DNA from: Pseudolabrys sp.
Lineage (GTDB): Bacteria > Pseudomonadota > Alphaproteobacteria > Rhizobiales > Xanthobacteraceae
Length of the DNA stretch: 64,000 nt
Assembly (NCBI GenBank): GCA_035648555.1
Contig: DASRLF010000020.1
Span: 2,606-66,605, forward strand
Direction: 5' to 3'
Shown: piece by piece, positions 5,109 to 13,817 of the stretch
Layout: every line of letters begins with the position of its first letter
Position numbering within the stretch: the stretch's first letter is position 1
Made by a program: the position numbers and the translations under genes
The notes under the pieces: generated by a model
The model's input: only the letters and a program-made list of their open reading frames with translations
What the model was told of the DNA's origin: nothing
The model's database searches: none

Positions 5109-6212
5109 CTAACCCCAGACTTCCTTTGCGACCTCAACGATCATCTTCAGCTTGGCCCATTGCTCGTCCTCCGCCAAGACATTGCCCTCCTCGGTCGAGG
5201 CGAAGCCGCATTGCGGCGACAAACAAAGCTGATCAAGCGAGATATATTTCGCCGCCTCCTCGATGCGGCGCTTGAGATCGTCCTTGTTCTCCAGCCGGCC
5301 GGTCTTGGTGGTGACGAGCCCGAGCACGACATGGCGGTCCTTCGGCACCAGTTTAAGCGGCTCGAAGCCACCGGCACGCGCGCTGTCGTATTCCATGAAA
5401 TAGCCGTGCACCTTGATGCGGTTGAACAGGATCTCCTGCTCGGCCTCATAGCCGCCCGAGCCCATGAAGGTCGATTTATAATTGCCGCGGCACAGGTGCA
5501 TCGTAATGCGCATGTCGGCGGGAATATCCGACATAGCGGTGTTGATCAAATCGCCGTAGAGTTCGCCCAGTTTTTCCGGATCGTCGCCGCGCGCTTCCAT
5601 CTGCGCGCGGTATTTTTCATCGCACAACATGGCGATGAACACCTCGTCGAGTTGCAGATAACGGCAGCCGGCATCGGCGAAGGCGCGCACGGCTTTTTTA
5701 TACGCTTGGCCGAGATCGTCGAAGAACGCGTCGAGCTTGGGATAAATATTTCGGTCGATCGGTGTCGGCACCGGCCTGCCATAAGCCGCCGATGGCGATG
5801 GAATCGTAATCTTAGGCGTGCGCTGGGTGTGCGCGGCGACAAACTTGAAATGCTCGATCATCGGATGGCCGGAGAACCCGACTTTTCCCGCGACCTTGAG
5901 GCCTTCATTGCGCGTGGTGACTGCGGCGAAGGCGATGCCGGTGTCCATCACGTGCTTTTCGATGCCGTCGAGGCCCCAGAGAAAATCGAGGTGCCACCAG
6001 GACCGGCGGAATTCGCCGTCGGTGATCGATTGCAGACCGGCGTCTTCCTGGCGCTTGATGACGCGCTCGATCTCGCGATCTTCGACCGCCTTCAGTGCGC
6101 CGGTATCGATCTCACCTTTGGCGCGCTGCTCGCGCGCCTTTTTCAGCGCGGCTGGTCGCAGCAGGCTGCCGACATGGTCGGCGCGGAATGGCGGCTTTGT
6201 TCGCATCGTCAT
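5109..6212 (-). CDS. Cobalamin-independent methionine synthase II family protein (MetE catalytic barrel only, YxjH-like); array copy 5 of 5 in transcription order
   Basis: DHVGSLLR, TDGEFRR, Zn ligands H-L-C (MHLCRGN), E (YFMEYD) and C (SPQCGF); 367 aa, about half of full MetE. Confidence 0.9.
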   Translation of the reverse strand: MTMRTKPPFRADHVGSLLRPAALKKAREQRAKGEIDTGALKAVEDREIERVIKRQEDAGLQSITDGEFRRSWWHLDFLWGLDGIEKHVMDTGIAFAAVTTRNEGLKVAGKVGFSGHPMIEHFKFVAAHTQRTPKITIPSPSAAYGRPVPTPIDRNIYPKLDAFFDDLGQAYKKAVRAFADAGCRYLQLDEVFIAMLCDEKYRAQMEARGDDPEKLGELYGDLINTAMSDIPADMRITMHLCRGNYKSTFMGSGGYEAEQEILFNRIKVHGYFMEYDSARAGGFEPLKLVPKDRHVVLGLVTTKTGRLENKDDLKRRIEEAAKYISLDQLCLSPQCGFASTEEGNVLAEDEQWAKLKMIVEVAKEVWG

Positions 6213-7321
6213 CGGCTACCCCATACTTCTTGCGCGATTTCCACGATCATCTTGAGCTTCGCCCATTGCTCGTCCTCGGCCAGGATATTCCCTTCCTCGG
6301 TCGAGGCGAAGCCGCATTGCGGCGAAAGGCAAAGTTGGTCAAGCGGGACAAATTTCGTCGCCTGATCGATGCGGCGCTTGATGGCGTCCTTGGATTCCAG
6401 CCGGCCGCTTTTGCTGGTGACCAAACCAAGCACTACGGTCTTACCCTTGGGTACGAAACGCAGCGGCTCGAAACCGCCGGCGCGATCCGAGTCGTATTCC
6501 ATGAAATAGCCGTGCACGTTGATCGCATTGAACAGAATCTCCGCGACCGGCTCGTAGCCGCCAGAGGCCACGAAGGTAGACTGGAAATTTCCGCGGCACA
6601 GATGCATGGCGATGGCCATGTCGGCGGGAATGTCGGAGATCGCGGCGTTGATCAGCCGGGCATAGGCCGCGGGCAATTGGGCCGGATCCTCGCCGCGTTC
6701 GCTGACCTGCGCCCGCAGTTTGGGATCGCAAAGATAAGCGAGATTGACTTCATCGAATTGCAGATAGCGGCAGCCGGCATCGGCAAAACCACGCACCGCC
6801 TGAGCGTAGGTCCGGCCCAGATCAGAATAAAAGTCCTCCATGTCTGGATAAATCGCGCCCGGAATGGCGTCGCGGCCGTAGCGGAAATGCAACGACGACG
6901 GCGACGGGATCGTCATTTTCGGCGAAACGCGCGTGTGCGCCTTGACGAACTTGAAATGCTCCAGCATCGGATGACCGGAAAACGTGCCGAGCTCGCCGGT
7001 CACGCGCAGCATCATCGGCTTGGGGTTATTGCCCGCGAACTTGATCTTGCGTTCGCCGAGATAGGCTTCGACGCCATCAAGCGCGCCCAGAAAATCGTAA
7101 TTCCAGAAGGCGCGGCGAAATTCGCCGTCAGTGACGGCTTTTAGCCCAATGTCTTCTTGCTTCTTAATGACGGTGGCGATCTCGCGATCCTCGATCGCCT
7201 TGAGCTGATCGGCGGTGAGCTCGCCTTTTTCGCGCTGGGCGCGGGCTTCTTTCAGCGGCGCGGTCCGCAACAGGCTGCCGACATGATCGGCGCGGAAGGG
7301 AGGACTAAGACGTAATGTCAT
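6209..7321 (-). CDS. Cobalamin-independent methionine synthase II family protein; array copy 4 of 5
   Basis: Same motifs: MHLCRGNFQST, YFMEYD, SPQCGFASTEEGN; 370 aa. Confidence 0.9.
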   Translation of the reverse strand: MTLRLSPPFRADHVGSLLRTAPLKEARAQREKGELTADQLKAIEDREIATVIKKQEDIGLKAVTDGEFRRAFWNYDFLGALDGVEAYLGERKIKFAGNNPKPMMLRVTGELGTFSGHPMLEHFKFVKAHTRVSPKMTIPSPSSLHFRYGRDAIPGAIYPDMEDFYSDLGRTYAQAVRGFADAGCRYLQFDEVNLAYLCDPKLRAQVSERGEDPAQLPAAYARLINAAISDIPADMAIAMHLCRGNFQSTFVASGGYEPVAEILFNAINVHGYFMEYDSDRAGGFEPLRFVPKGKTVVLGLVTSKSGRLESKDAIKRRIDQATKFVPLDQLCLSPQCGFASTEEGNILAEDEQWAKLKMIVEIAQEVWGSR

Positions 7322-7330
7322 GCGCGGAGC

Positions 7331-8437
7331 TTAGCGGCCCCACACTTCTTCCGCCAACTCGACGATCATGCGCAGCTTGGCCCACTGCTCGTCCTCGGCC
7401 AGCACGTTGCCTTCCTCGGTCGAGGCGAAGCCGCACTGCGGCGAAAGGCACAGCTGCTCGAGCGCGACATATTTGGTGGCCTCCTCGATGCGGCGCTTGA
7501 TGTCGTCGCGCGGCTCCAGCCGGCCGCTTTTCGAGGTGACCAGGCCGAGGACCAGTTGCTTCTTGCCCTTGGGGAAAAAGCGCAGCGGCTCGAAGCCGCC
7601 GGCGCGGTCGCTGTCGTATTCCAGGAAATAGCCGTCGAAATTGGTGTTGCCGAGCAGATGCTCGGCGACGAATTCGTAGCCGCCCTGCGCGATCCAGGTG
7701 GAGCGGAAATTGCCGCGGCAGGAATGCATGGTGATCGCCATGTCGGCGGGCTTGCCGGCGAGCGCTTCATTGGTGACGCGCGCGTAGATCGCCGGCAGCG
7801 TGTCGGGGTCATCGCCGCGCGCCTTCGACTGCGCGCGCTCGTTCGGATCGCAGATCATTGACCAGGCGGTGTCGTCGAGCTGCAGGTAGCGGCAGCCGGC
7901 GTCGTAGAAGGCGCGGATCGCCTTGCGCCAGGCGGCGGCGACGTCGGCGAAGAAGGCGTCGTAGTCGGGATAGGCCTGCTTGCTCACCATCGCCCGGCCC
8001 TGCCGGAAATGGAACGTCGACGGCGCCGGGATCGTCATCTTCGGCGTGACGTTGCAGTGCGCCTTCAAGAACTTGAAATGCTCGATCATCGGATGGCCGG
8101 TGAAATCGACCTTGCCGGAGATCTTGATTGCCTCGGCTTTCGTCTCGACACCGTGAAATTTGATCGGCGGCGCGCTGATCATCTCGACGCCCTGCAGCCC
8201 CTTGAAGAAATCGAAGTGCCACCAGGAGCGGCGGAATTCGCCGTCGGTGGCGAGCTTCAGGCCCACCGCCGCCTGCTTCTTGATGATTTTTTCGATCTCG
8301 CGGTCTTCGACGTCTTTCAGCGCGCCGGCGTCGATCTCGCCCTTGGAAAATTTGGCGCGTGCGTCTTTCAGCGGAGCGGTGCGCAACAGGCTGCCGACCA
8401 TGTCGGCGCGGAACGGCGGCGCGGTGCGGGCGCTCAT
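7331..8437 (-). CDS. Cobalamin-independent methionine synthase II family protein; array copy 3 of 5
   Basis: Start ATG 8437 (MSARTAPPF) overlaps the upstream stop (ATGA); MHSCRGN, YFLEYD, SPQCGF. Confidence 0.9.
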   Translation of the reverse strand: MSARTAPPFRADMVGSLLRTAPLKDARAKFSKGEIDAGALKDVEDREIEKIIKKQAAVGLKLATDGEFRRSWWHFDFFKGLQGVEMISAPPIKFHGVETKAEAIKISGKVDFTGHPMIEHFKFLKAHCNVTPKMTIPAPSTFHFRQGRAMVSKQAYPDYDAFFADVAAAWRKAIRAFYDAGCRYLQLDDTAWSMICDPNERAQSKARGDDPDTLPAIYARVTNEALAGKPADMAITMHSCRGNFRSTWIAQGGYEFVAEHLLGNTNFDGYFLEYDSDRAGGFEPLRFFPKGKKQLVLGLVTSKSGRLEPRDDIKRRIEEATKYVALEQLCLSPQCGFASTEEGNVLAEDEQWAKLRMIVELAEEVWGR

Positions 8438-9540
8438 TTGCCCCACACCTCTTCTGCCAGTTCCACGATCATGCGCAGCTTGGCCCACTGCTCGTCCTCG
8501 GCCAGCACGTTGCCTTCCTCGGTCGAGGCGAAGCCGCATTGCGGCGACAAGCACAGCTGATCGAGCGCGACATATTTGCTGGCCTCGTCGATGCGGCGCT
8601 TGATGTCATCGCGCGGCTCCAACCGGCCCGACTTCGAAGTGACCAGGCCGAGCACCAGCTGCTTCTTGCCCTTGGGAAAATGACGCAGCGGCTCGAAGCC
8701 GCCGGCACGCTCGCTGTCGTATTCCAGGAAATAGCCGTCGAAATTGGTGTTGCCGAGCAGATGTTCGGCGACGAATTCATAGCCGCCCTGCGCGATCCAG
8801 GTGGAGCGGAAATTGCCGCGGCAGGAATGCATCGTAATCGCCATGTCGGCGGGCTTGCCTTCGAGCGCGGCATTGGTGACGCGTGCATAGATCGCCGGCA
8901 GCGTGTCGGGATTATCGCCGCGCGCCTTCGATTGCTCGCGCTCCTTGGGGTCGCAGATCATCGCCCAGGCGGTGTCGTCGAGCTGCAGGTAGCGGCAGCC
9001 GGCATCGTAGAAGGCGCGGATCGCCTTGCGCCAGGTGGCGCCGACATCCGCGAAGAAGGCGTCGTAGTCGGGGTAGGCCTCCTTGCTCACCATCGCCCGG
9101 CCCTGCCGGAAATGGAACGTGCTCGGCGCCGGAATGGTCATCTTGGGCGTGACGTTGCAATGCGCCTTCAGAAATTTGAAATGCTCGAGATGCGGATGGC
9201 CGGCGAAGTCGACCTTGCCGGTGATCTTGACCGCCTCGGCTTTTGTTTCGACGCCGTGGAATTTGATCGGCGGCGCACTGATCAGCTCGACGCCCTTGAG
9301 TCCCTTGAAGAAATCGAAATGCCACCAGGAACGGCGAAATTCGCCGTCGGTAGCGAGCTTCAGGCCCACCTCCGCCTGCTTCTTGACGATCTTCTCGATC
9401 TCGCGGTCTTCGACTTCGCGCAGCGCGTCGGCGGGAATTGCGCCTTTGGCAAACTTGGCGCGCGCCTCTTTCAGCGCAGCGGGGCGCAGCAGGCTGCCGA
9501 CGTGATCGGCGCGGAACGGCGCGGTCGTCCGCGCGCTCAT
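8434..9540 (-). CDS. Cobalamin-independent methionine synthase II family protein; array copy 2 of 5
   Basis: Start ATG 9540 (MSARTTAPF), ATGA overlap; about 90% identical to copy 3 by hand count. Confidence 0.9.
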   Translation of the reverse strand: MSARTTAPFRADHVGSLLRPAALKEARAKFAKGAIPADALREVEDREIEKIVKKQAEVGLKLATDGEFRRSWWHFDFFKGLKGVELISAPPIKFHGVETKAEAVKITGKVDFAGHPHLEHFKFLKAHCNVTPKMTIPAPSTFHFRQGRAMVSKEAYPDYDAFFADVGATWRKAIRAFYDAGCRYLQLDDTAWAMICDPKEREQSKARGDNPDTLPAIYARVTNAALEGKPADMAITMHSCRGNFRSTWIAQGGYEFVAEHLLGNTNFDGYFLEYDSERAGGFEPLRHFPKGKKQLVLGLVTSKSGRLEPRDDIKRRIDEASKYVALDQLCLSPQCGFASTEEGNVLAEDEQWAKLRMIVELAEEVWGK

Positions 9541-10646
9541 TTGCCCCAGACCTCTTGCGAAAGATCCACGATCATCTTCAGCTTGGCCCATTGCTCGTCC
9601 TCGGCCAGCACGTTGCCCTCTTCGGTCGAGGCAAAGCCGCATTGCGGCGAAAGACAAAGCTGATCGAGCGCGACATATTTAGTCGCCTCCTCGATGCGCT
9701 TCTTGATGTCTTCGCGCGGCTCCAGCCGGCCGGATTTCGAGGTGACGAGACCCAGCACAACGATCTTGTTGCCTTTCGGGACGAAGCGCAGCGGCTCGAA
9801 GCCGCCGGCGCGGTCGCTGTCATATTCCAGGAAGTAGCCATCGTAATTGCACTTGGCGAGCAGGCTCTCGGCCACCGGCTCGTAGCCGCCGGACGAAATA
9901 AAGGTGGAGCGGAAATTGCCCCGGCAAACATGGGTCGTGATGGTCATATCGGCGGGCTTGGCCTCCAGCGCCTTGTTGATGCAGCGGGTATAGCTATCCT
10001 GCAGATGATCGACATCGAGGCCGCGCTCGCGCGCCTTCTTCAACTCGGCCTCCGAGCAGAGATAGGCCCAGGCGGTGTCATCCCATTGCAGGTAGCGGCA
10101 GCCAGCGGCGTAGAACGCCTTAATCGCCGACTGATAGGCCATGGCGAGATCGTCGAAGATGGCGTCTCGGCTCGGATAGAACTCTTTGCTCACCGCGCCG
10201 GGTTCGAGCCGGAAATGCATCACGCTCGGCGCCGGAATGGTCATCTTCGGCATGACCTTGGTGTGCGCCTTCAGGAACCTGAAGTGCTCCAGCATCGGAT
10301 GATTGGAGAAGCCGATCTTGCCTTTGACGCGGATGCTGAGCGGCTTGGTCTGCACGCCCTGAAACTGGATGCCGTGGTCGAGCTCATAAATCTCGACGCC
10401 ATCGAGCATGCCGAAGAAATCAAAATGCCACCATGAGCGGCGGAATTCGCCGTCGGTGGCGAGCTTGAGCCCGATGTCTTCCTGTTTCTTGATGATCTTC
10501 TCGATCTCGCGATCCTCGACCTCTTTGAGCTGGGCCGGGCTAATTGCGCTCTTCTCGCGTTGCGCGCGCGCCTGCTTGACCGGCGCGGTGCGCAGGATGC
10601 TGCCGACATGGTCGGCGCGGAAAGGCGGCTTGGTTCGCTGCGTCAT
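9537..10646 (-). CDS. Cobalamin-independent methionine synthase II family protein; array copy 1 of 5
   Basis: THVCRGNFRST, YFLEYD, SPQCGF; GGAGG RBS upstream of ATG 10646. Confidence 0.9.
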   Translation of the reverse strand: MTQRTKPPFRADHVGSILRTAPVKQARAQREKSAISPAQLKEVEDREIEKIIKKQEDIGLKLATDGEFRRSWWHFDFFGMLDGVEIYELDHGIQFQGVQTKPLSIRVKGKIGFSNHPMLEHFRFLKAHTKVMPKMTIPAPSVMHFRLEPGAVSKEFYPSRDAIFDDLAMAYQSAIKAFYAAGCRYLQWDDTAWAYLCSEAELKKARERGLDVDHLQDSYTRCINKALEAKPADMTITTHVCRGNFRSTFISSGGYEPVAESLLAKCNYDGYFLEYDSDRAGGFEPLRFVPKGNKIVVLGLVTSKSGRLEPREDIKKRIEEATKYVALDQLCLSPQCGFASTEEGNVLAEDEQWAKLKMIVDLSQEVWGK

Positions 10647-10690: not shown

Positions 10691-11545
10691 TTATTTAATG
10701 TGAGCCATAGCACGGCCCGGCTGCGGCGTGCCATGCGCCGCTTCGCATGCGTAGCGTGCAGTTTCGATGGTGCCCCCGAATGAAAAATAATGCGGCGCGG
10801 CATCGCCCAGATCGCCAGCGGCCACAAGCGCCTCAAGGATGCGGTCCGGCCCGACATGGCCAATCAGGCCGGCGGCCGCGCCCGACATCAGGCCGCGCAG
10901 CGAAGCGGCAACGCCGCAACGCTGGGCGTAACGGAACAGCGCCGGCACGCTGGTCGGTCCAGCCATACCGACTTTCACCGGCTGATTGATGCCGCAGGTG
11001 CGCAACTGCCGGAGCCAGGCGAGGATACGCTCGGGCGAAAAGGAAAATTGGCTGACGATATGTACGCCAAGTCCTTGCGCGGTGGCGGCGGCGATCTTTT
11101 CATCAAGCGCCGCTTCAAGCCGGCCGGCCGGAATGCGCGGGTGGCCTTCCGGATAGGCGCCGATGCCGATCTCTTCAATGCCGGCTTCGCGCAATTTGCC
11201 TTTCTGAATCACCGCCAGCGCGTCTGGATAAGGCCCCGCGGCGTCGACATCGCCACCGACCACGAGAATACGGCGGATGTCCGCTTCGCCACGCAGGCTG
11301 GCCAGCAGGTTTTGCAAGTCGGCGGCCGCGCCAATTCGGCGCGCCGCGATATGAACGACCGGTTCCAAGCCGGACTTACGCAGCAAAGCCGCCGCCGCGA
11401 TCAGCTCAGGCGGCTCGATCGTCGGCACCGCCGAAAAATAGACCGGCGTTCCGCCCGGCAGCAGGTCCGCCAACGCCGCAATCTCGGCCGCGCCGGGACG
11501 CGTGGCCTCAAGCGAAAACCGCCGCGCGAAGGCGTCCGGGCTCAT
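10691..11545 (-). CDS. metF: Methylenetetrahydrofolate reductase-like flavoprotein (atypical alphaproteobacterial MetF family)
   Basis: FSLEAT, PVVHIAARR, LVVGGD, GAYPEGHP, VSQFSF, GMAGP, RCGV, YFSFGG match the MTHFR barrel motifs in order. Confidence 0.8.
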   Translation of the reverse strand: MSPDAFARRFSLEATRPGAAEIAALADLLPGGTPVYFSAVPTIEPPELIAAAALLRKSGLEPVVHIAARRIGAAADLQNLLASLRGEADIRRILVVGGDVDAAGPYPDALAVIQKGKLREAGIEEIGIGAYPEGHPRIPAGRLEAALDEKIAAATAQGLGVHIVSQFSFSPERILAWLRQLRTCGINQPVKVGMAGPTSVPALFRYAQRCGVAASLRGLMSGAAAGLIGHVGPDRILEALVAAGDLGDAAPHYFSFGGTIETARYACEAAHGTPQPGRAMAHIK

Positions 11546-11549
11546 TGCG

Positions 11550-12959
11550 CTATTCGCGCCGGTGCGAGATCACGAAAGATTCGTCGTAGAACCAAAGACC
11601 GCCCTGCTGCTGCAGCACGTCGCGCGTCGCCTCGATGTAGCGGCGGTCGCTGTTGACGTCGGACAGGCGGTCGTCCTCGATTTGCGCCACGTAGATCGCG
11701 GCGTTCCAGGCCGCCAGCAGCGTCGAGGTGCCGATCGATGAGGAAATTTCCGATGGCAGCGTGTGCATCTCGTAGCGGAACAGCGAGCGCTGGTCGGAAT
11801 AGGCGTTGAAATTGAGATCGCGGCCGGCAGGCCCCAGTTCGTGTTTCACCGCCTTGAGTAGATCGTGGCGGCTATGCGCGAAGGGATTATCCTCGGGCCA
11901 AACTTTGTGGATGATTTCCATGCCGGGGTCACGCCCGTAGGAATGGATCGCGATCATACGGCCGCCGGGCCCGAGCGCGCGAGCGAGCGGCGCCAGCACG
12001 CGCTTGGCCTTGAAGTCGATCGAGGCGCGCGCGCGATAAGGCTGCGACGCGATCACCAGATCGTAGTCGGCAACCGTGGCGCCCGGTTTCGGGATGACCT
12101 GATCGAGCAGAAACTTGTGATCGTTGCGGTAAAGCACCAGCACCACCGGCCGCTCGTAGACCGGATTGCCGCTCTTCGGCGACACGCGCGCTTTCCAGTT
12201 TTCACCAAGGAACGGCTCAAGCGCGGTGATCTGCTGCTCGAACGAATGCGCGGTGTCGCCCTCGAGCGCAACTTCCTTCCAGACCATGCTGGAGGCCGCC
12301 GTCACCGACTTGACGGACAGCCACGGCGCTTCCGCGTAAGCGAGGTTGGTAAGAACAATGACGCTCGAAGGATGCTCAATGAAACGGTCCGCCATTTTCT
12401 GCAGCGTGAGGCGGACATCTTCGAGGCTGATTTCCTTGGCCACGATGTAGAACGGCATGGTCGGGTAACGGTCGTGCATCGAGCGCATGACGCGCGCCAG
12501 CACGGTGCCGTCGCCAACGCCGGCGTCGAACACACGCACCGCCGGCGGTCGCGGGTGGATGCTGGCAAGTTCGAGACTGACGCGGTTGGCGACTTCCCAC
12601 TTCTCGCTGCAGGTATTCACGAACAGCAGATATTTCTGCCTGTTGTCGAAGAATCGGAAATTGCGTTGCGGGTCGTCGCCCGCTTGACCGGAGGCGACCG
12701 GCGGGGCCGGCGGCTTGACCATCGGCAAGACCGCGGGCGGCGCCGCATCGAACAATACGCGGCGGCGAGCCGGCGCTGCGTCGGCGTTGCGCGCCATGAA
12801 GCTACGGATGCGCTCGAGCGTGTCAGTGGTAATGCGGCCGCCATTGCGCAGGCGGTTGGCGAGCTTGCCGTCATTGACCGCGCGGCGGCCGAAAGTGGAT
12901 TCGGCCAGACCGCGCTGGCGGCAGAATTCGCCGATCTCCTGGAGGATTTGATCGTTCAT
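11550..12959 (-). CDS. Fusion of an N-terminal small HTH-like DNA-binding domain and a class I SAM-dependent methyltransferase-like domain
   Basis: Residues 1-56 (GLAESTFGRRAVNDGKLANRLRNGG) are Cro/XRE-like, followed by a Pro/Ala linker and the SAM-binding motif I VFDAGVGDG. Confidence 0.65.
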   Translation of the reverse strand: MNDQILQEIGEFCRQRGLAESTFGRRAVNDGKLANRLRNGGRITTDTLERIRSFMARNADAAPARRRVLFDAAPPAVLPMVKPPAPPVASGQAGDDPQRNFRFFDNRQKYLLFVNTCSEKWEVANRVSLELASIHPRPPAVRVFDAGVGDGTVLARVMRSMHDRYPTMPFYIVAKEISLEDVRLTLQKMADRFIEHPSSVIVLTNLAYAEAPWLSVKSVTAASSMVWKEVALEGDTAHSFEQQITALEPFLGENWKARVSPKSGNPVYERPVVLVLYRNDHKFLLDQVIPKPGATVADYDLVIASQPYRARASIDFKAKRVLAPLARALGPGGRMIAIHSYGRDPGMEIIHKVWPEDNPFAHSRHDLLKAVKHELGPAGRDLNFNAYSDQRSLFRYEMHTLPSEISSSIGTSTLLAAWNAAIYVAQIEDDRLSDVNSDRRYIEATRDVLQQQGGLWFYDESFVISHRRE

Positions 12960-13041
12960 GGGTGCGTTTCCTGGCTGGCTCTCATGGCCGGCTCAGCGCC
13001 TAGGGAACCAAGCTTACTCAAATCCGTCAATCACAAAAGAG

Positions 13042-13180
13042 GCTATATAAAAGGTGGGCAAAGTGGGTGGGCTCAGCCCAACGCTATATTTATATGAATA
13101 TATTGTTCTTTGAAAAGGTGTTTCCGGCTTTCAGTGGGCTACTACCCACTTACTGCGTAAGTGTGGGCAATAAGTGGGCC
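13042..13180. promoter_or_regulatory. AT-rich upstream region of the met-like operon with repeated GTGGG boxes and three palindromes
   Basis: GTGGG at 13054, 13063, 13067, 13134, 13163, 13174. TGGGCT-C-AGCCCA 13068-13080; AGTGGG-N6-CCCACT 13133-13150; CACTTAC-N3-GTAAGTG 13147-13163. Confidence 0.55.
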
Positions 13181-13202
13181 GCGCGGTCCGGCGATAACGT
13201 CT

Positions 13203-13817
13203 TCAGATGTCGAAGAAAACCGTTTCGTCGCCGCCCTGGACGCGAATGTCGAAGCGGTAGGTGGCGGGGCCGCTGCCGGGCTGCTTGTGGGCAATAAGGG
13301 TGCCGCGGCGGTCTGCCGGCACTAGCGTCAGGATTTGATCGGCATCGTTCGCCTTCTCGTCGGAGAAATACAGCCGCGTATAGATCTGCCGCAGCATGCC
13401 GCGCGAGAAGATGCAGACCACGATATGCGGCGCCTGCGGCTTGCCGTTCGGCCCCTGCACCGCGCCGGGCTTGACGGTGTCGAACGAATAGATGCCGTCT
13501 TTGTCGGTGGCGGAACGGCCGAAGCCGGTAAACTTCGCATTCGGGCGCGGCTTCTCACCGCGCGCATGGGCATAACGGCCTTGGGCATCGGCCTGCCAGA
13601 TTTCGATCATGGCGTCGTTGATCGGCTTGCCGTCACCGTCGAGCACGCGGCCTTCGATGTGGATCTTGGTGCCGGTGGCGTCGGGTGTGATCAGATTGTC
13701 GCCGACGGTTTCCTTCCAGCTATAGTGGCCGTTCGGATCCCATTGGCAGCGGCCATCAGGCGTCAGCCCATAGGCGAAGAACGGCCCAACCGTCTGTGAG
13801 GGCGTGATTTCGGACAT
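13203..13817 (-). CDS. pcaG: Protocatechuate 3,4-dioxygenase alpha subunit
   Basis: ITPSQTVGPFF, IEIWQADAQG, QAPHI..FSRG, YRFDIRVQG..ETVFFDI. Confidence 0.96.
   Translation of the reverse strand: MSEITPSQTVGPFFAYGLTPDGRCQWDPNGHYSWKETVGDNLITPDATGTKIHIEGRVLDGDGKPINDAMIEIWQADAQGRYAHARGEKPRPNAKFTGFGRSATDKDGIYSFDTVKPGAVQGPNGKPQAPHIVVCIFSRGMLRQIYTRLYFSDEKANDADQILTLVPADRRGTLIAHKQPGSGPATYRFDIRVQGGDETVFFDI

What the first reader, a model, noticed from the sequence alone, without database searches (positions are those of the whole stretch)
11550..12959. HTH-methyltransferase fusion: possible SAM/SAH-sensing regulator convergent with SahR
SEEN: a 56-aa N-terminal domain (MNDQILQEIGEFCRQRGLAESTFGRRAVNDGKLANRLRNGGRITTDTLERIRSFMA), a ~45-aa Pro/Ala linker, then a ~360-aa domain with DAGVGDG motif I. 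It is the first gene of the met-like operon. KNOWN: the N-terminus resembles small Cro-like HTH proteins of alphaproteobacterial phages; SahR uses an MTase fold as a ligand sensor for methionine-cycle genes. INFERRED: a new regulator class coupling SAM/SAH status to operon expression, or a DNA-tethered methyltransferase.
Basis: partly seen in the sequence, partly recalled or inferred. Interest (0 to 1): 0.8.

Follow-up and report, generated by a model that had tools for sequence, protein, structure and literature searches.

The report
HTH-methyltransferase-fold autoregulator of methyl-folate genes
This gene encodes an unannotated, widespread alphaproteobacterial protein that joins a phage-type DNA-binding head to a SAM-methyltransferase-like body, sits in front of a methyl-folate-oxidising enzyme, and most likely controls its own operon according to the cell's methyl-group status, as the unrelated regulator SahR does.

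Summary
ORF 11550-12959 (minus strand, 469 aa) has a 56-aa four-helix N-domain, a disordered Pro/Ala linker of about 44 aa, and a 369-aa domain with DAGVGDG. It heads a tightly spaced operon.

It matches no Pfam, NCBIfam or PDB sequence, yet belongs to a large family found only in Alphaproteobacteria.

- **Folds.** Models place the N-domain with XRE/Cro-type HTH proteins. The C-domain is a class I small-molecule SAM-methyltransferase fold, nearest to histamine N-methyltransferase, with SAM-binding motifs that match the class I pattern.
- **Neighbour.** The next gene is a type-4, methyl-THF-oxidising MTHFR (E 1e-53 to S6MTHFR). In other genomes the neighbours are other MTHFRs, MetK, MetE-like or LigM-like genes.
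- **Operator.** Arrays of GCCCAC/GTGGGC boxes next to a conserved TTTGTGGTTGAC block lie upstream of 81 of 90 homologues that have the HTH. They lie upstream of 0 of 11 that lack it, and in 2.7% of random controls.
- **History.** HTH-less forms are basal in the tree, so the body existed as a free-standing protein first.

Best reading: a local autoregulator with a SAM/SAH-binding, possibly still catalytic, methyltransferase-fold domain. It is convergent with SahR, which this genome also has. The effector, the sign of regulation and any catalysis are untested.

The parts
11550..12959 (-). Whole gene for the 469-aa HTH-linker-methyltransferase-fold protein (called X469 here)
   Evidence: ORF. Homologues. 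AF2 model.
12792..12959 (-). N-terminal domain, aa 1-56: four-helix XRE/Cro-like HTH. Helix 2 is residues 20-28 and helix 3 is 33-38. The FG..AVNDGK..RLR core is nearly invariant.
   Evidence: AF2 of the domain alone, pLDDT 87.3. All top PDB fold matches are XRE HTH proteins (HipB, C.Esp1396I, SinR; TMq 0.58-0.70, rmsd about 2 A, but E >= 0.46). Viral matches have TM 0.76-0.81. phrog_7669 E 1.7e-6. Alignment A4.
12660..12791 (-). Pro/Ala-rich flexible linker, aa 57-100
   Evidence: pLDDT below 50 for residues 62-105. Hypervariable in length and sequence among homologues.
11553..12659 (-). C-terminal domain, aa 101-469: class I SAM-methyltransferase fold. It has a cap insertion of about 90 aa between beta3 and beta4 and a conserved N-terminal helix FRFFDNRQKYL.
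   Evidence: Foldseek against PDB: HNMT 1jqd E 8.5e-8, fatty-acid O-MTase 5f2k, TmtA/GtmA, RoqN. Invariant residues include D145-A-G147-x-G149-D150, K175-E176, T204-N205 and D300..A304-S-Q-P307. hhalign to the SahR methyltransferase domain matches only the beta4-beta5 region.
12507..12527 (-). Motif I, DAGVGDG (aa 145-151)
13134..13179 (-). Distal operator-like cluster: GCCCAC-N5-GCCCAC ... GTGGGT-N4-GCCCAC, including the palindrome CCCACTTAC-GCA-GTAAGTGGG
   Evidence: It forms the densest CCCAY/RTGGG box cluster found in the 3-Mb genome.
13050..13072 (-). Proximal operator-like boxes, GCCCACCCACTTTGCCCACCTTT, 12 nt upstream of the -35-like block
   Evidence: Conserved in Pseudolabrys loci. 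In other families a palindrome TTGCCCAC-N7-GTGGGC occupies the same position.
13002..13037 (-). Conserved promoter-like block: TTTGTGATTGAC (13026-13037, contains TTGACG), then N13, then CTTGGTTCCCT (13002-13012)
   Evidence: Anchored alignment of 69 homologous upstream regions. It does not fit the E. coli sigma-70 consensus.
10691..11545 (-). Second gene: type-4 (S6MTHFR-type, methyl-THF-oxidising) methylenetetrahydrofolate reductase, 4 nt downstream
   Evidence: E 1e-53 to PDB 7xg9. Only 32 bits to Pfam MTHFR. Family described in PMC11868366. Adjacent to X469 in most Xanthobacteraceae loci and several other families.
5109..10646 (-). Five tandem core-MetE (PRK06520-type) paralogues, probably co-transcribed cargo
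   Evidence: The copy number varies from 1 to 5 among Pseudolabrys loci.

Best explanation
X469 is a local, self-regulating transcription factor built from two unrelated modules. A phage-derived XRE/Cro-type helix-turn-helix head (aa 1-56) is tied by a disordered linker to a class I SAM-methyltransferase-fold body (aa 101-469).

The head, presumably as a dimer or higher oligomer formed through the body, binds the array of GCCCAC/GTGGGC boxes next to the promoter-like block TTTGTGATTGAC upstream of its own gene. This sets transcription of the operon it heads. The cargo is a type-4 MTHFR, which drains 5-methyl-THF to methylene-THF, followed by five MetE-core methyltransferases and a CoA module.

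The body keeps sequence motifs that match the SAM-binding motifs of class I methyltransferases. It most likely reads the methyl status of the cell by binding SAM and/or SAH, or by turning SAM over, and passes this to DNA binding. Methyl-folate oxidation and methyl-transfer genes would then be expressed only when the methionine/SAM pool allows it.

The body descends from a free-standing protein that was already linked to MTHFR and MetK genes. It may therefore still be a working small-molecule methyltransferase. The protein would then be an enzyme/regulator hybrid in the manner of BirA, PutA or NadR.

Shown: the domain architecture, the folds (predicted), the motif conservation, the conserved gene context, the co-occurrence of operator and HTH, and the order of evolutionary events.

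Inferred: DNA binding by the head, the identity of the ligand, the sign of regulation, and catalysis.
For: 1. N-domain. It is predicted as a four-helix XRE HTH. The listed PDB fold matches are almost all XRE-family DNA binders.

2. Box arrays.
- Upstream of homologues that carry the N-domain, 81 of 90 have at least 3 CCCAY/RTGGG boxes within 250 nt (mean 4.6).
- Among homologues without it, 0 of 11 do (mean 0.45).
- Among 2100 random 250-nt segments of the same loci, 2.7% do (mean 0.50).

3. Shared architecture. 69 promoters from several families share ..GCCCAyyA..TTGCCCAC-N7-GTGGGC-N4-TTTGTGGTTGACs-N13-cTTGGTTCGCT.

4. Independent changes.
- Two HTH-less forms nested inside the HTH-bearing clade (L113, L114) have also lost the boxes.
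- A stand-alone 68-aa copy of the head (L125) has ATCCCAC boxes upstream.
- The recognition-helix region NDGK..RLR is nearly invariant, and so is the CCCAC core.

5. Own genome. Direct GCCCAC-N5-7-GCCCAY occurs three times in the window's genome, twice at this promoter. The densest box cluster is also here. This points to local autoregulation.

6. Body. It is a class I methyltransferase fold (HNMT E 8.5e-8). Motif I, the beta2 acidic residue E176 and the post-beta4 residues are invariant.

7. Context.
- The type-4 MTHFR is adjacent in most Xanthobacteraceae loci.
- It is adjacent in 7 of the 13 class-wide genomes that have both genes. Six of these are HTH-bearing forms and the seventh is a contig-end fragment of unknown form.
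- Elsewhere the neighbours are a second MTHFR type, MetK, a LigM-like GcvT and MetE-like genes.
- In large same-family genomes (6-9 Mb), a paralogue precedes a MetK-like gene, and GTGGGCAGA-N33-TCTGCCCAC lies about 5-30 nt upstream of the start codon.

8. Pseudoenzyme relatives. A divergent HTH-bearing subfamily (P0133, P0136) has lost motif I and the beta2 acidic residue but keeps the head. It is therefore probably not a SAM-dependent methyltransferase.

9. No riboswitch lies in the leader.
Against: - No experiment. DNA binding, ligand binding and regulation are all inferred.
- The fold matches of the 62-aa head have non-significant E-values (0.46-1 against PDB). Pfam HTH_3 does not match even at E 10.
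- The long-versus-short contrast is partly phylogenetic. The long forms are one clade, and only about 3 independent changes support the link. Many of the 90 long loci are close relatives.
- The proximal palindrome lies upstream of the -35-like hexamer rather than over it. A simple repressor model is therefore not evident, and in Pseudolabrys the palindrome is degraded to direct repeats.
- No intrinsic terminator separates pcaG from this gene, so read-through is possible.
- The body is very highly conserved, with many invariant polar residues outside the SAM motifs, and HTH-less forms share the same invariant residues. This is what an active enzyme would look like, so 'sensor' may be the lesser part of its function.
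- No further operator sites were found elsewhere in this or eight other genomes. There is thus no regulon beyond the gene's own promoter to corroborate the motif assignment.
Confidence: 0.55

Rival explanations
1. X469 is first of all an enzyme: an active SAM-dependent small-molecule methyltransferase of the methyl-folate/SAM cycle, with an unknown acceptor. The HTH only provides simple autoregulation of enzyme level, with the catalytic intermediate or substrate as co-regulator (BirA/PutA/NadR logic). It is not a dedicated SAM/SAH sensor.
For: - HTH-less forms are ancestral and occur in about 12 of 28 genomes sampled. They share the same invariant residues as the long forms.
- Several HTH-less forms also sit next to MTHFR or MetK genes (L113, L116, L117, L122).
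- The nearest folds are all active small-molecule methyltransferases with a cap domain.
- There are many invariant polar residues outside the SAM site: R102, D105, N106, R107, K109, E195-H196, R278, D280, R309, W354, E404, T411-S412-T413 and D459-E460.
Against: - No acceptor can be named. No Pfam or NCBIfam family matches.
- A divergent HTH-bearing subfamily has lost the SAM motifs but kept the head. At least some members therefore work without methyl transfer.
- This reading overlaps the best explanation more than it excludes it.
Confidence: 0.25
2. The body is a SAM-sensing protein partner of MTHFR. It would be a trans-acting counterpart of the SAM-binding regulatory domain of eukaryotic MTHFR and would control enzyme activity by protein-protein contact. 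In long forms the HTH adds transcriptional control on top.
For: - The most conserved neighbour across the family is an MTHFR of one type or another. It is type 4 next to most long forms, and the c19 type next to one long and three short forms.
- Short forms cannot act on DNA.
- The type-4 MTHFR paper notes that this enzyme class may regulate methionine biosynthesis and lacks a known electron acceptor or partner.
Against: - 16 of the 29 genomes with X469 have no type-4 MTHFR.
- Many loci have neither MTHFR type nearby.
- No interaction evidence exists, and no co-folding could be run.
- The eukaryotic regulatory domain has a different fold (own knowledge).
Confidence: 0.1
3. The N-domain does not bind the boxes. 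The GCCCAC array is the site of another regulator, or a promoter feature, that happens to travel with this clade. The head mediates protein-protein contacts.
For: - Fold-search E-values for the head are not significant and Pfam HTH models do not match.
- The box/HTH association rests on few independent evolutionary changes.
Against: - The listed fold neighbours are almost all DNA-binding XRE domains.
- Boxes also precede a stand-alone copy of the head in an unrelated genome.
- Boxes disappear in the two nested HTH losses.
- Palindromes with half-sites about one turn apart suit a dimeric HTH.
Confidence: 0.07
4. X469 is a DNA- or RNA-modifying methyltransferase. Its HTH tethers it to DNA and autoregulates it, as in M.SsoII/M.EcoRII-type restriction-modification methyltransferases.
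For: - The architecture, an N-terminal HTH plus a methyltransferase, resembles M.SsoII-like enzymes (own knowledge).
- The best fold matches of the head include restriction-modification controller proteins.
- The sequence S305-Q-P-Y308 loosely recalls the SPPY motif of amino-methyltransferases.
Against: - The body's fold neighbours are small-molecule methyltransferases, not DNA methyltransferases.
- hhalign places ASQPY at the ordinary post-beta4 position of Methyltransf_11-type enzymes.
- No endonuclease gene is nearby and the context is one-carbon metabolism.
- GCCCAC is not avoided in the genome (observed/expected 0.87).
Confidence: 0.03

Closest known systems
SahR / SamR (ArsR-family, SAH- or SAM-responsive regulators of SAM-cycle genes in Proteobacteria; PMC4239095)
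   Same: An HTH is fused to a class I SAM-methyltransferase-like domain. The gene stands at the head of, or beside, metF, methionine-synthase and metK genes. Palindromic operators lie at its own promoter. The presumed logic is that methyl-cycle status controls methyl-cycle genes.
   Different: - The DNA-binding domain differs: an XRE/Cro four-helix HTH rather than an ArsR winged helix (PF01022).
- The methyltransferase-fold domain differs and matches no Pfam model. It is HNMT-like with a 90-aa cap, and hhalign relates only the beta4-beta5 region.
- A long disordered linker is present.
- The partner is a type-4 (oxidising) MTHFR rather than the biosynthetic MetF.
- The genome has both systems: sahR-metF-metH on contig C31.
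BirA (class II biotin protein ligase), PutA, NadR: enzyme/repressor hybrids
   Same: An optional N-terminal DNA-binding domain is added to an enzyme that exists without it in other taxa. The hybrid autoregulates its own pathway genes.
   Different: The enzyme folds and DNA-binding folds are unrelated. Catalysis by X469 is unproven.
Histamine N-methyltransferase and other capped small-molecule class I methyltransferases (1jqd, 5f2k, 5egp, 5w7m)
   Same: Best structural matches of the body (E 8.5e-8 to 1e-5, TM to target 0.5-0.63). They share a Rossmann-type SAM-binding core plus a substrate cap.
   Different: About 11% sequence identity. The insertions differ. None has an HTH. The substrate of X469 is unknown.
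Restriction-modification controller (C) proteins and HipB/SinR-type XRE repressors
   Same: Best structural matches of the head. These are small dimeric HTH proteins that bind tandem palindromic operators just upstream of, or over, the -35 region of their own promoters.
   Different: They are stand-alone or fused to other partners. Sequence identity is about 15-20%. Pfam HTH_3 does not match.
phrog_7669 and small hypothetical proteins of Agrobacterium phage Atu_ph08 and Synechococcus phages
   Same: The only sequence-level relatives of the head outside the family (E 1.7e-6; 39-43% identity).
   Different: They are free-standing and of unknown function.

Membership tests
SahR/SamR family | N-terminal ArsR-type winged HTH (Pfam HTH_5, PF01022) | tested here: not met
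   No Pfam hit for X469 at E <= 10. The predicted fold is a four-helix XRE type. The genome's own SahR-like protein does hit HTH_5.
SahR/SamR family | C-terminal Methyltransf_11/25-type domain homologous to that of SahR | tested here: not met
   hhalign of the family profile against the genome's SahR-like protein matches only 40 columns (beta4-beta5), probability 51%. There are no Pfam methyltransferase hits.
SahR/SamR family | SAH (or SAM) binding that modulates DNA binding | not testable with these tools
   Needs ITC or DSF and EMSA.
Class I (Rossmann-fold) SAM-dependent methyltransferase superfamily | Seven-stranded alpha/beta fold similar to solved class I methyltransferases | tested here: met
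   AF2 pLDDT is above 90 over most of residues 120-400. Foldseek gives 66 PDB matches with E <= 1e-3, and the 50 listed are all methyltransferases.
Class I (Rossmann-fold) SAM-dependent methyltransferase superfamily | Motif I (D/E-x-G-x-G-x-G) and an acidic residue at the end of beta2 | tested here: met
   D145-A-G-V-G-D-G151 and K175-E176 are invariant in 27 homologues. Both are lost in the divergent P0133/P0136 subfamily.
Class I (Rossmann-fold) SAM-dependent methyltransferase superfamily | Methyl transfer from SAM to an acceptor | not testable with these tools
   No acceptor can be inferred. An enzyme assay is needed.
XRE / Cro-C1 HTH DNA-binding domains | Helical bundle with the HTH formed by helices 2 and 3, superimposable on solved XRE domains | tested here: inconclusive
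   Top PDB matches are HipB, C.Esp1396I, SinR, DdrO and CapH (TMq 0.58-0.70, rmsd about 2 A over about 51 residues). E-values are 0.46-1 because the domain is short. Viral HTH_XRE models give TM 0.6-0.8.
XRE / Cro-C1 HTH DNA-binding domains | Match to the Pfam HTH_3/HTH_31 sequence models | tested here: not met
   No family at E <= 10.
XRE / Cro-C1 HTH DNA-binding domains | Cognate repeated or palindromic operator at the regulated promoter | tested here: met
   Box arrays are present in 81/90 loci with the domain, 0/11 without it and 2.7% of controls. The conserved TTGCCCAC-N7-GTGGGC lies next to the promoter-like block. This is co-occurrence, not binding.
M.SsoII-like HTH-DNA methyltransferases | DNA (C5 or amino) methyltransferase catalytic domain with a target-recognition domain and a linked restriction gene | tested here: not met
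   The fold neighbours are small-molecule methyltransferases. No restriction-modification context.
Type-4 MTHFR (neighbour gene 10691-11545) | Close similarity to S6MTHFR, and its motifs (Leu48-Pro49, Arg78, Pro268-Phe269) | tested here: inconclusive
   E 1e-53 over 257 residues to 7xg9. Read off that alignment, the motifs correspond to Val-Pro, Arg-Arg (conserved) and Ser-Phe. Two of the three motifs are kept, Leu is replaced by Val, and Pro268 is replaced by Ser. The direction of activity was not tested.

The most novel reading that the evidence does not exclude
The methyltransferase-fold body is a trans-acting SAM sensor for bacterial MTHFRs. It would be the functional counterpart of the SAM-binding regulatory domain that only eukaryotic MTHFR was thought to have. 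Fusion to a phage HTH then turned it into a two-level controller of the branch point between the folate and methionine cycles, acting on both enzyme activity and transcription. If it also supplies the missing partner of the type-4, methyl-THF-oxidising MTHFR, it would explain how these enzymes are kept from starving methionine synthesis.
Probability: 0.1. Interest if true: 0.8.

Novelty: new variant of a known kind. Interest (0 to 1): 0.6.

Why it matters
The family is large and restricted to Alphaproteobacteria. It has thousands of sequence clusters, includes large same-family genomes (6-9 Mb) and abundant soil Xanthobacteraceae, and has no name, no Pfam or NCBIfam model and no paper that I could find.

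It marks a second, independent invention of an 'HTH plus methyltransferase-fold' regulator for methyl-cycle genes, and it coexists with SahR in the same cell.

It is tied to the type-4 MTHFRs described only in 2025. Those enzymes run 'backwards', and their control and electron partner are open questions. A defined operator and a cultured carrier make the hypothesis directly testable. Pseudolabrys sp. Root1462 is one such carrier.

The family also offers a clean case of a free-standing enzyme captured by a phage HTH, with pseudoenzyme derivatives. For annotation, it would turn a recurrent 'hypothetical protein' next to metF and metK genes into a named regulator.

Tried and rejected
Searches that found nothing:
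- Pfam, NCBIfam and PDB sequence searches of the whole protein and of each domain gave nothing usable.
- The Rfam scan of the leader and operon start found no riboswitch.
- The sigma-70 and terminator consensus scan of 12850-13300 found nothing. The promoter is therefore inferred only from conservation.
- The literature search for a described regulator of this architecture found nothing.

Search for a wider regulon:
- Box clusters, direct repeats and palindromes in the window's whole genome gave only this promoter as a convincing site.
- The exact palindrome in eight other genomes was no commoner than its reversed control.
- The type-4 MTHFR genes that lie away from X469 in G050 and G089 follow ahcY and metK and have no boxes of their own.

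Ideas rejected:
- A restriction-modification-like role. GCCCAC is not avoided (observed/expected 0.87), and ASQPY aligns to an ordinary post-beta4 segment.

Technical problems:
- The first, length-greedy ORF caller picked antisense ORFs in these GC-rich loci and was replaced by a GC3-aware one. Neighbour calls remain crude.
- The search for related loci with the 13-sequence alignment failed for lack of a conserved stretch.
No transcript start or co-transcription evidence could be obtained.
Full report
**1. The observation**

The ORF 11550-12959 on the minus strand encodes 469 aa beginning MNDQILQEIGEFCRQRGLAESTFGRRAVNDGKLANRLRNGGRITTDTLERIRSFMA. It is a real, strongly conserved gene.
The listed ones are 86-95% identical over the full length. 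All are 'hypothetical protein', and the few named ones are from Pseudolabrys.
- An exhaustive search of 50%-identity representatives found 2122 relatives.
- Pfam, NCBIfam and PDB sequence searches found nothing, for the whole protein or for either domain.

AlphaFold2 on a 27-sequence alignment (mean pLDDT 83.7) shows four helices in residues 2-57. It also shows a disordered stretch at 62-105 and a confident alpha/beta domain from about 106 to 469. The linker is Pro/Ala-rich here and hypervariable in length and sequence among homologues. Motif I, DAGVGDG, is residues 145-151.

**2. Position in the operon**

A 243-nt gap separates the gene from pcaG upstream. Only 4 nt separate its stop codon from the next start. 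Then follow an MTHFR-like gene, five tandem core-MetE paralogues (NCBIfam PRK06520), a MaoC hydratase, a further ORF with no Pfam match and a family III CoA-transferase. All are on the minus strand with short gaps or overlaps.

The MTHFR-like protein scores only 32 bits against Pfam MTHFR. It matches PDB 7xg9 at E 1e-53. That entry is the Sphingobium SYK-6 enzyme S6MTHFR, the founding member of the 'type 4' MTHFRs. These oxidise 5-methyl-THF to methylene-THF and work with THF-dependent demethylases (PMC11868366).

The genome also has:
- a canonical MetF (312 bits);
- a third MTHFR (117 bits);
- a canonical SahR-like gene (HTH_5 plus Methyltransf_11) directly upstream of metF-metH on another contig.

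X469 and its operon are thus a second, parallel module and not the cell's main methionine-cycle control.

**3. The two domains**

*Head.*
- Modelled alone, the head has pLDDT 87.3.
- It superimposes on HipB, the restriction-modification controller protein C.Esp1396I, SinR, DdrO and CapH, with TM 0.58-0.70 and rmsd about 2 A over about 51 residues. Almost all the listed PDB matches are XRE-type HTH proteins. The E-values (0.46-1) are not significant for so short a query.
- Against viral models the best matches are uncharacterised Caudovirales proteins (TM 0.76-0.81) and many HTH_XRE or CI-like repressors.
- At sequence level it matches phrog_7669 of unknown function (E 1.7e-6). It also matches hypothetical proteins of Agrobacterium phage Atu_ph08 and three Synechococcus phages.
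- Free-standing copies of 65-140 aa occur in other alphaproteobacterial genomes.

*Body.*
- The body matches histamine N-methyltransferase (E 8.5e-8), mycobacterial fatty-acid O-methyltransferase, the thiol methyltransferases TmtA/GtmA, RoqN, OxaG and other capped small-molecule class I methyltransferases. Sequence identity is about 11%.
- Residues invariant in 27 diverse homologues include motif I, K175-E176 at the end of beta2, T204-N205 after beta3 and D300..A304-S-Q-P307 after beta4. I assign these to SAM binding by pattern, not by a structural overlay.
- Many polar residues outside these motifs are also invariant.
- A subdomain of about 90 aa is inserted between beta3 and beta4.
- A profile comparison with the genome's SahR-like protein aligns only the beta4-beta5 segment, at 51% probability. 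The two regulators share no more than the generic fold.

**4. Distribution and history**

In an even sample of 300 genomes of the class, 29 carry the body. In 400 genomes spread over the phylum, all hits are again in the same class. The family is therefore alphaproteobacterial.
- Of the 28 genomes with a scorable 5' end, 16 have the head and 12 lack it.
- A maximum-likelihood tree of the body places the HTH-less forms basally. All HTH-bearing forms fall in one derived clade, with two nested HTH-less members. This fits one gain and two losses.
- The body therefore existed, and still exists, as a free-standing protein.
- A divergent HTH-bearing subfamily (P0133, P0136; about 40% identity) has lost motif I (FEANLGEG, FISQMDNG) and the beta2 acidic residue, but keeps the head.

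**5. Gene context across the family**
- In nearly all Xanthobacteraceae loci the type-4 MTHFR follows directly, at 42-95% identity, even where the pcaHG genes and the MetE array are absent.
- Across the class, X469 and type-4 MTHFR co-occur in 13 genomes, against about 5 expected from their frequencies.
- They are adjacent in 7 of these 13. Six are HTH-bearing forms and the seventh is a contig-end fragment of unknown form.
- Other neighbours are a second MTHFR type, MetK, a LigM-like GcvT-family protein and MetE-like genes. The second MTHFR type lies next to one long and three short forms. MetK lies near one long and one short form.
- In large same-family genomes (6-9 Mb), a paralogue lies directly upstream of a divergent MetK-like gene.
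- Type-4 MTHFR genes that lie elsewhere in two genomes directly follow ahcY or metK.
- The constant theme is the junction of the folate and SAM cycles.

**6. The operator**

The 243-nt gap holds GCCCAC/GTGGG boxes in two groups (13134-13179 and 13050-13072). A block TTTGTGATTGAC (13026-13037) follows them.

Anchoring 69 homologous upstream regions on that block gives a shared architecture:

..tGGGc..GCCCAyyA..tTGCCCAC-N7-GTGGGC-N4-TTTGTGGTTGACs-N13-cTTGGTTCGCT

The start codon lies 66-138 nt further on. In most families the proximal element is a clean palindrome, often preceded by a second one about 34 bp upstream. In Pseudolabrys, including this window, the right half-site is degraded and direct repeats remain.

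| Set | Share with >= 3 boxes in 250 nt | Mean boxes |
|---|---|---|
| HTH-bearing homologues | 81/90 | 4.6 |
| HTH-less homologues | 0/11 | 0.45 |
| Random 250-nt segments | 2.7% of 2100 | 0.50 |

- The two HTH-less forms nested in the HTH clade have lost the boxes.
- A free-standing copy of the head in an unrelated genome is preceded by ATCCCAC boxes.
- In the window's genome the arrangement is essentially unique to this promoter.
- Exact palindromes are not enriched elsewhere in eight other genomes.

This pattern fits a local autoregulator whose head recognises the CCCAC core. The near-invariance of the NDGK..RLR helix region matches the invariance of that core.

**7. How it most likely works**

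The head, dimerised through the body, binds the box array and controls the promoter of its own operon.

The body binds SAM and/or SAH and modulates this binding. The type-4 MTHFR diverts 5-methyl-THF away from methionine synthesis. It would make sense for that enzyme and the attached methyl-transfer genes to be expressed only when the SAM pool is adequate. Where the cargo is a MetK-like gene, the same logic gives product feedback.

The sign of regulation is open. The proximal palindrome lies just upstream of the -35-like hexamer, as in C-protein operators. In the large same-family genomes a wide inverted repeat lies just upstream of the start codon.

The body is ancestral, free-standing in many genomes and conserved like an enzyme. 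It may therefore still catalyse methyl transfer, which would make this a BirA/PutA-type hybrid. The pseudoenzyme subfamily shows that at least some members probably work without SAM-dependent methyl transfer.

I put 0.55 on the autoregulator-with-methyl-status-sensing reading. I put 0.25 on 'mainly an enzyme with simple autoregulation', and smaller weights on the other rivals.

**8. Comparison with known systems**

It works like SahR/SamR but is not a member. The ArsR HTH and the SahR-type methyltransferase domain were both tested and not met. It belongs structurally to the class I methyltransferase superfamily. Its head belongs, by predicted fold only, to the XRE HTH class. I found no description of it in the searchable literature.

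Earlier notes of this scan on relatives in other genomes reached a similar reading. I treated them as leads and re-derived the fold, context and operator evidence independently here.

**9. Limits**
- Everything about binding, ligand and regulation is inferred.
- The long/short contrast rests on few independent events, and many long loci are close relatives.
- Neighbour gene calls came from a crude GC3-based caller.

Noticed in passing
window 10691-11545 (-): The 'MetF-like' gene is a type-4 (S6MTHFR-type, methyl-THF-oxidising) MTHFR. It matches PDB 7xg9 at E 1e-53. Arg78 is kept, Leu48-Pro49 is Val-Pro, and Pro268-Phe269 is Ser-Phe. The genome has two other MTHFR-family genes: a canonical MetF on C31 and a 117-bit type on C6.
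   Followed up: partly
window 5109-10646 (-), and the whole genome: Five tandem core-MetE (PRK06520) paralogues follow the type-4 MTHFR. Type-4 MTHFRs are said to work with THF-dependent demethylases, yet tblastn finds no LigM-like GcvT gene in this 92%-complete genome. Pseudolabrys sp. Root1462 has one inside the equivalent cluster (L053). The MetE-like array may be the source or sink of the methyl-THF here. The copy number varies from 1 to 5 among Pseudolabrys loci.
   Followed up: partly
genome contig C31:38695-44367 (outside the window): A canonical sahR-like gene (HTH_5 plus Methyltransf_11, 334 aa), metF and metH form an operon. The cell therefore carries both the classical and the new HTH-methyltransferase-fold proteins.
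   Followed up: partly
window 13002-13012, and 69 related loci: A second conserved block, cTTGGTTCGCT, lies 13 nt downstream of TTTGTGGTTGACs. It is too far from the TTGAC hexamer for a standard -10 element. Together the blocks look like direct TGGTT repeats about 24 nt apart. It could be an unusual promoter, a second factor's site or a leader element.
   Followed up: no
L142-L146 (same-family genomes of 6-9 Mb): A paralogue of X469 (61-64% identity) lies directly upstream of a divergent MetK-like gene (35% identity to a canonical MetK), often with a MetE-like gene on the other side. Its upstream region has a wide inverted repeat, GTGGGCAGA-N33-TCTGCCCAC, about 5-30 nt from the start codon. 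Some genomes carry two long paralogues about 34 kb apart.
   Followed up: partly
proteins P0133 and P0136 (alignment A1): An HTH-bearing subfamily at about 40% identity has degenerate motif I (FEANLGEG, FISQMDNG), has lost the beta2 acidic residue and has an altered ASQPYRAR segment. These are probable pseudo-methyltransferase regulators with another ligand or none.
   Followed up: no
L136 (G050:C143) and L137 (G089:C420): Type-4 MTHFR genes that are not next to X469 directly follow ahcY (G050) or metK (G089). This ties the enzyme class to the SAM cycle and not only to aromatic demethylation.
   Followed up: no
L130 (G211:C11): A small free-standing protein carries two tandem copies of the head domain. 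It is preceded by an inverted TCCCA...TGGGA repeat.
   Followed up: no
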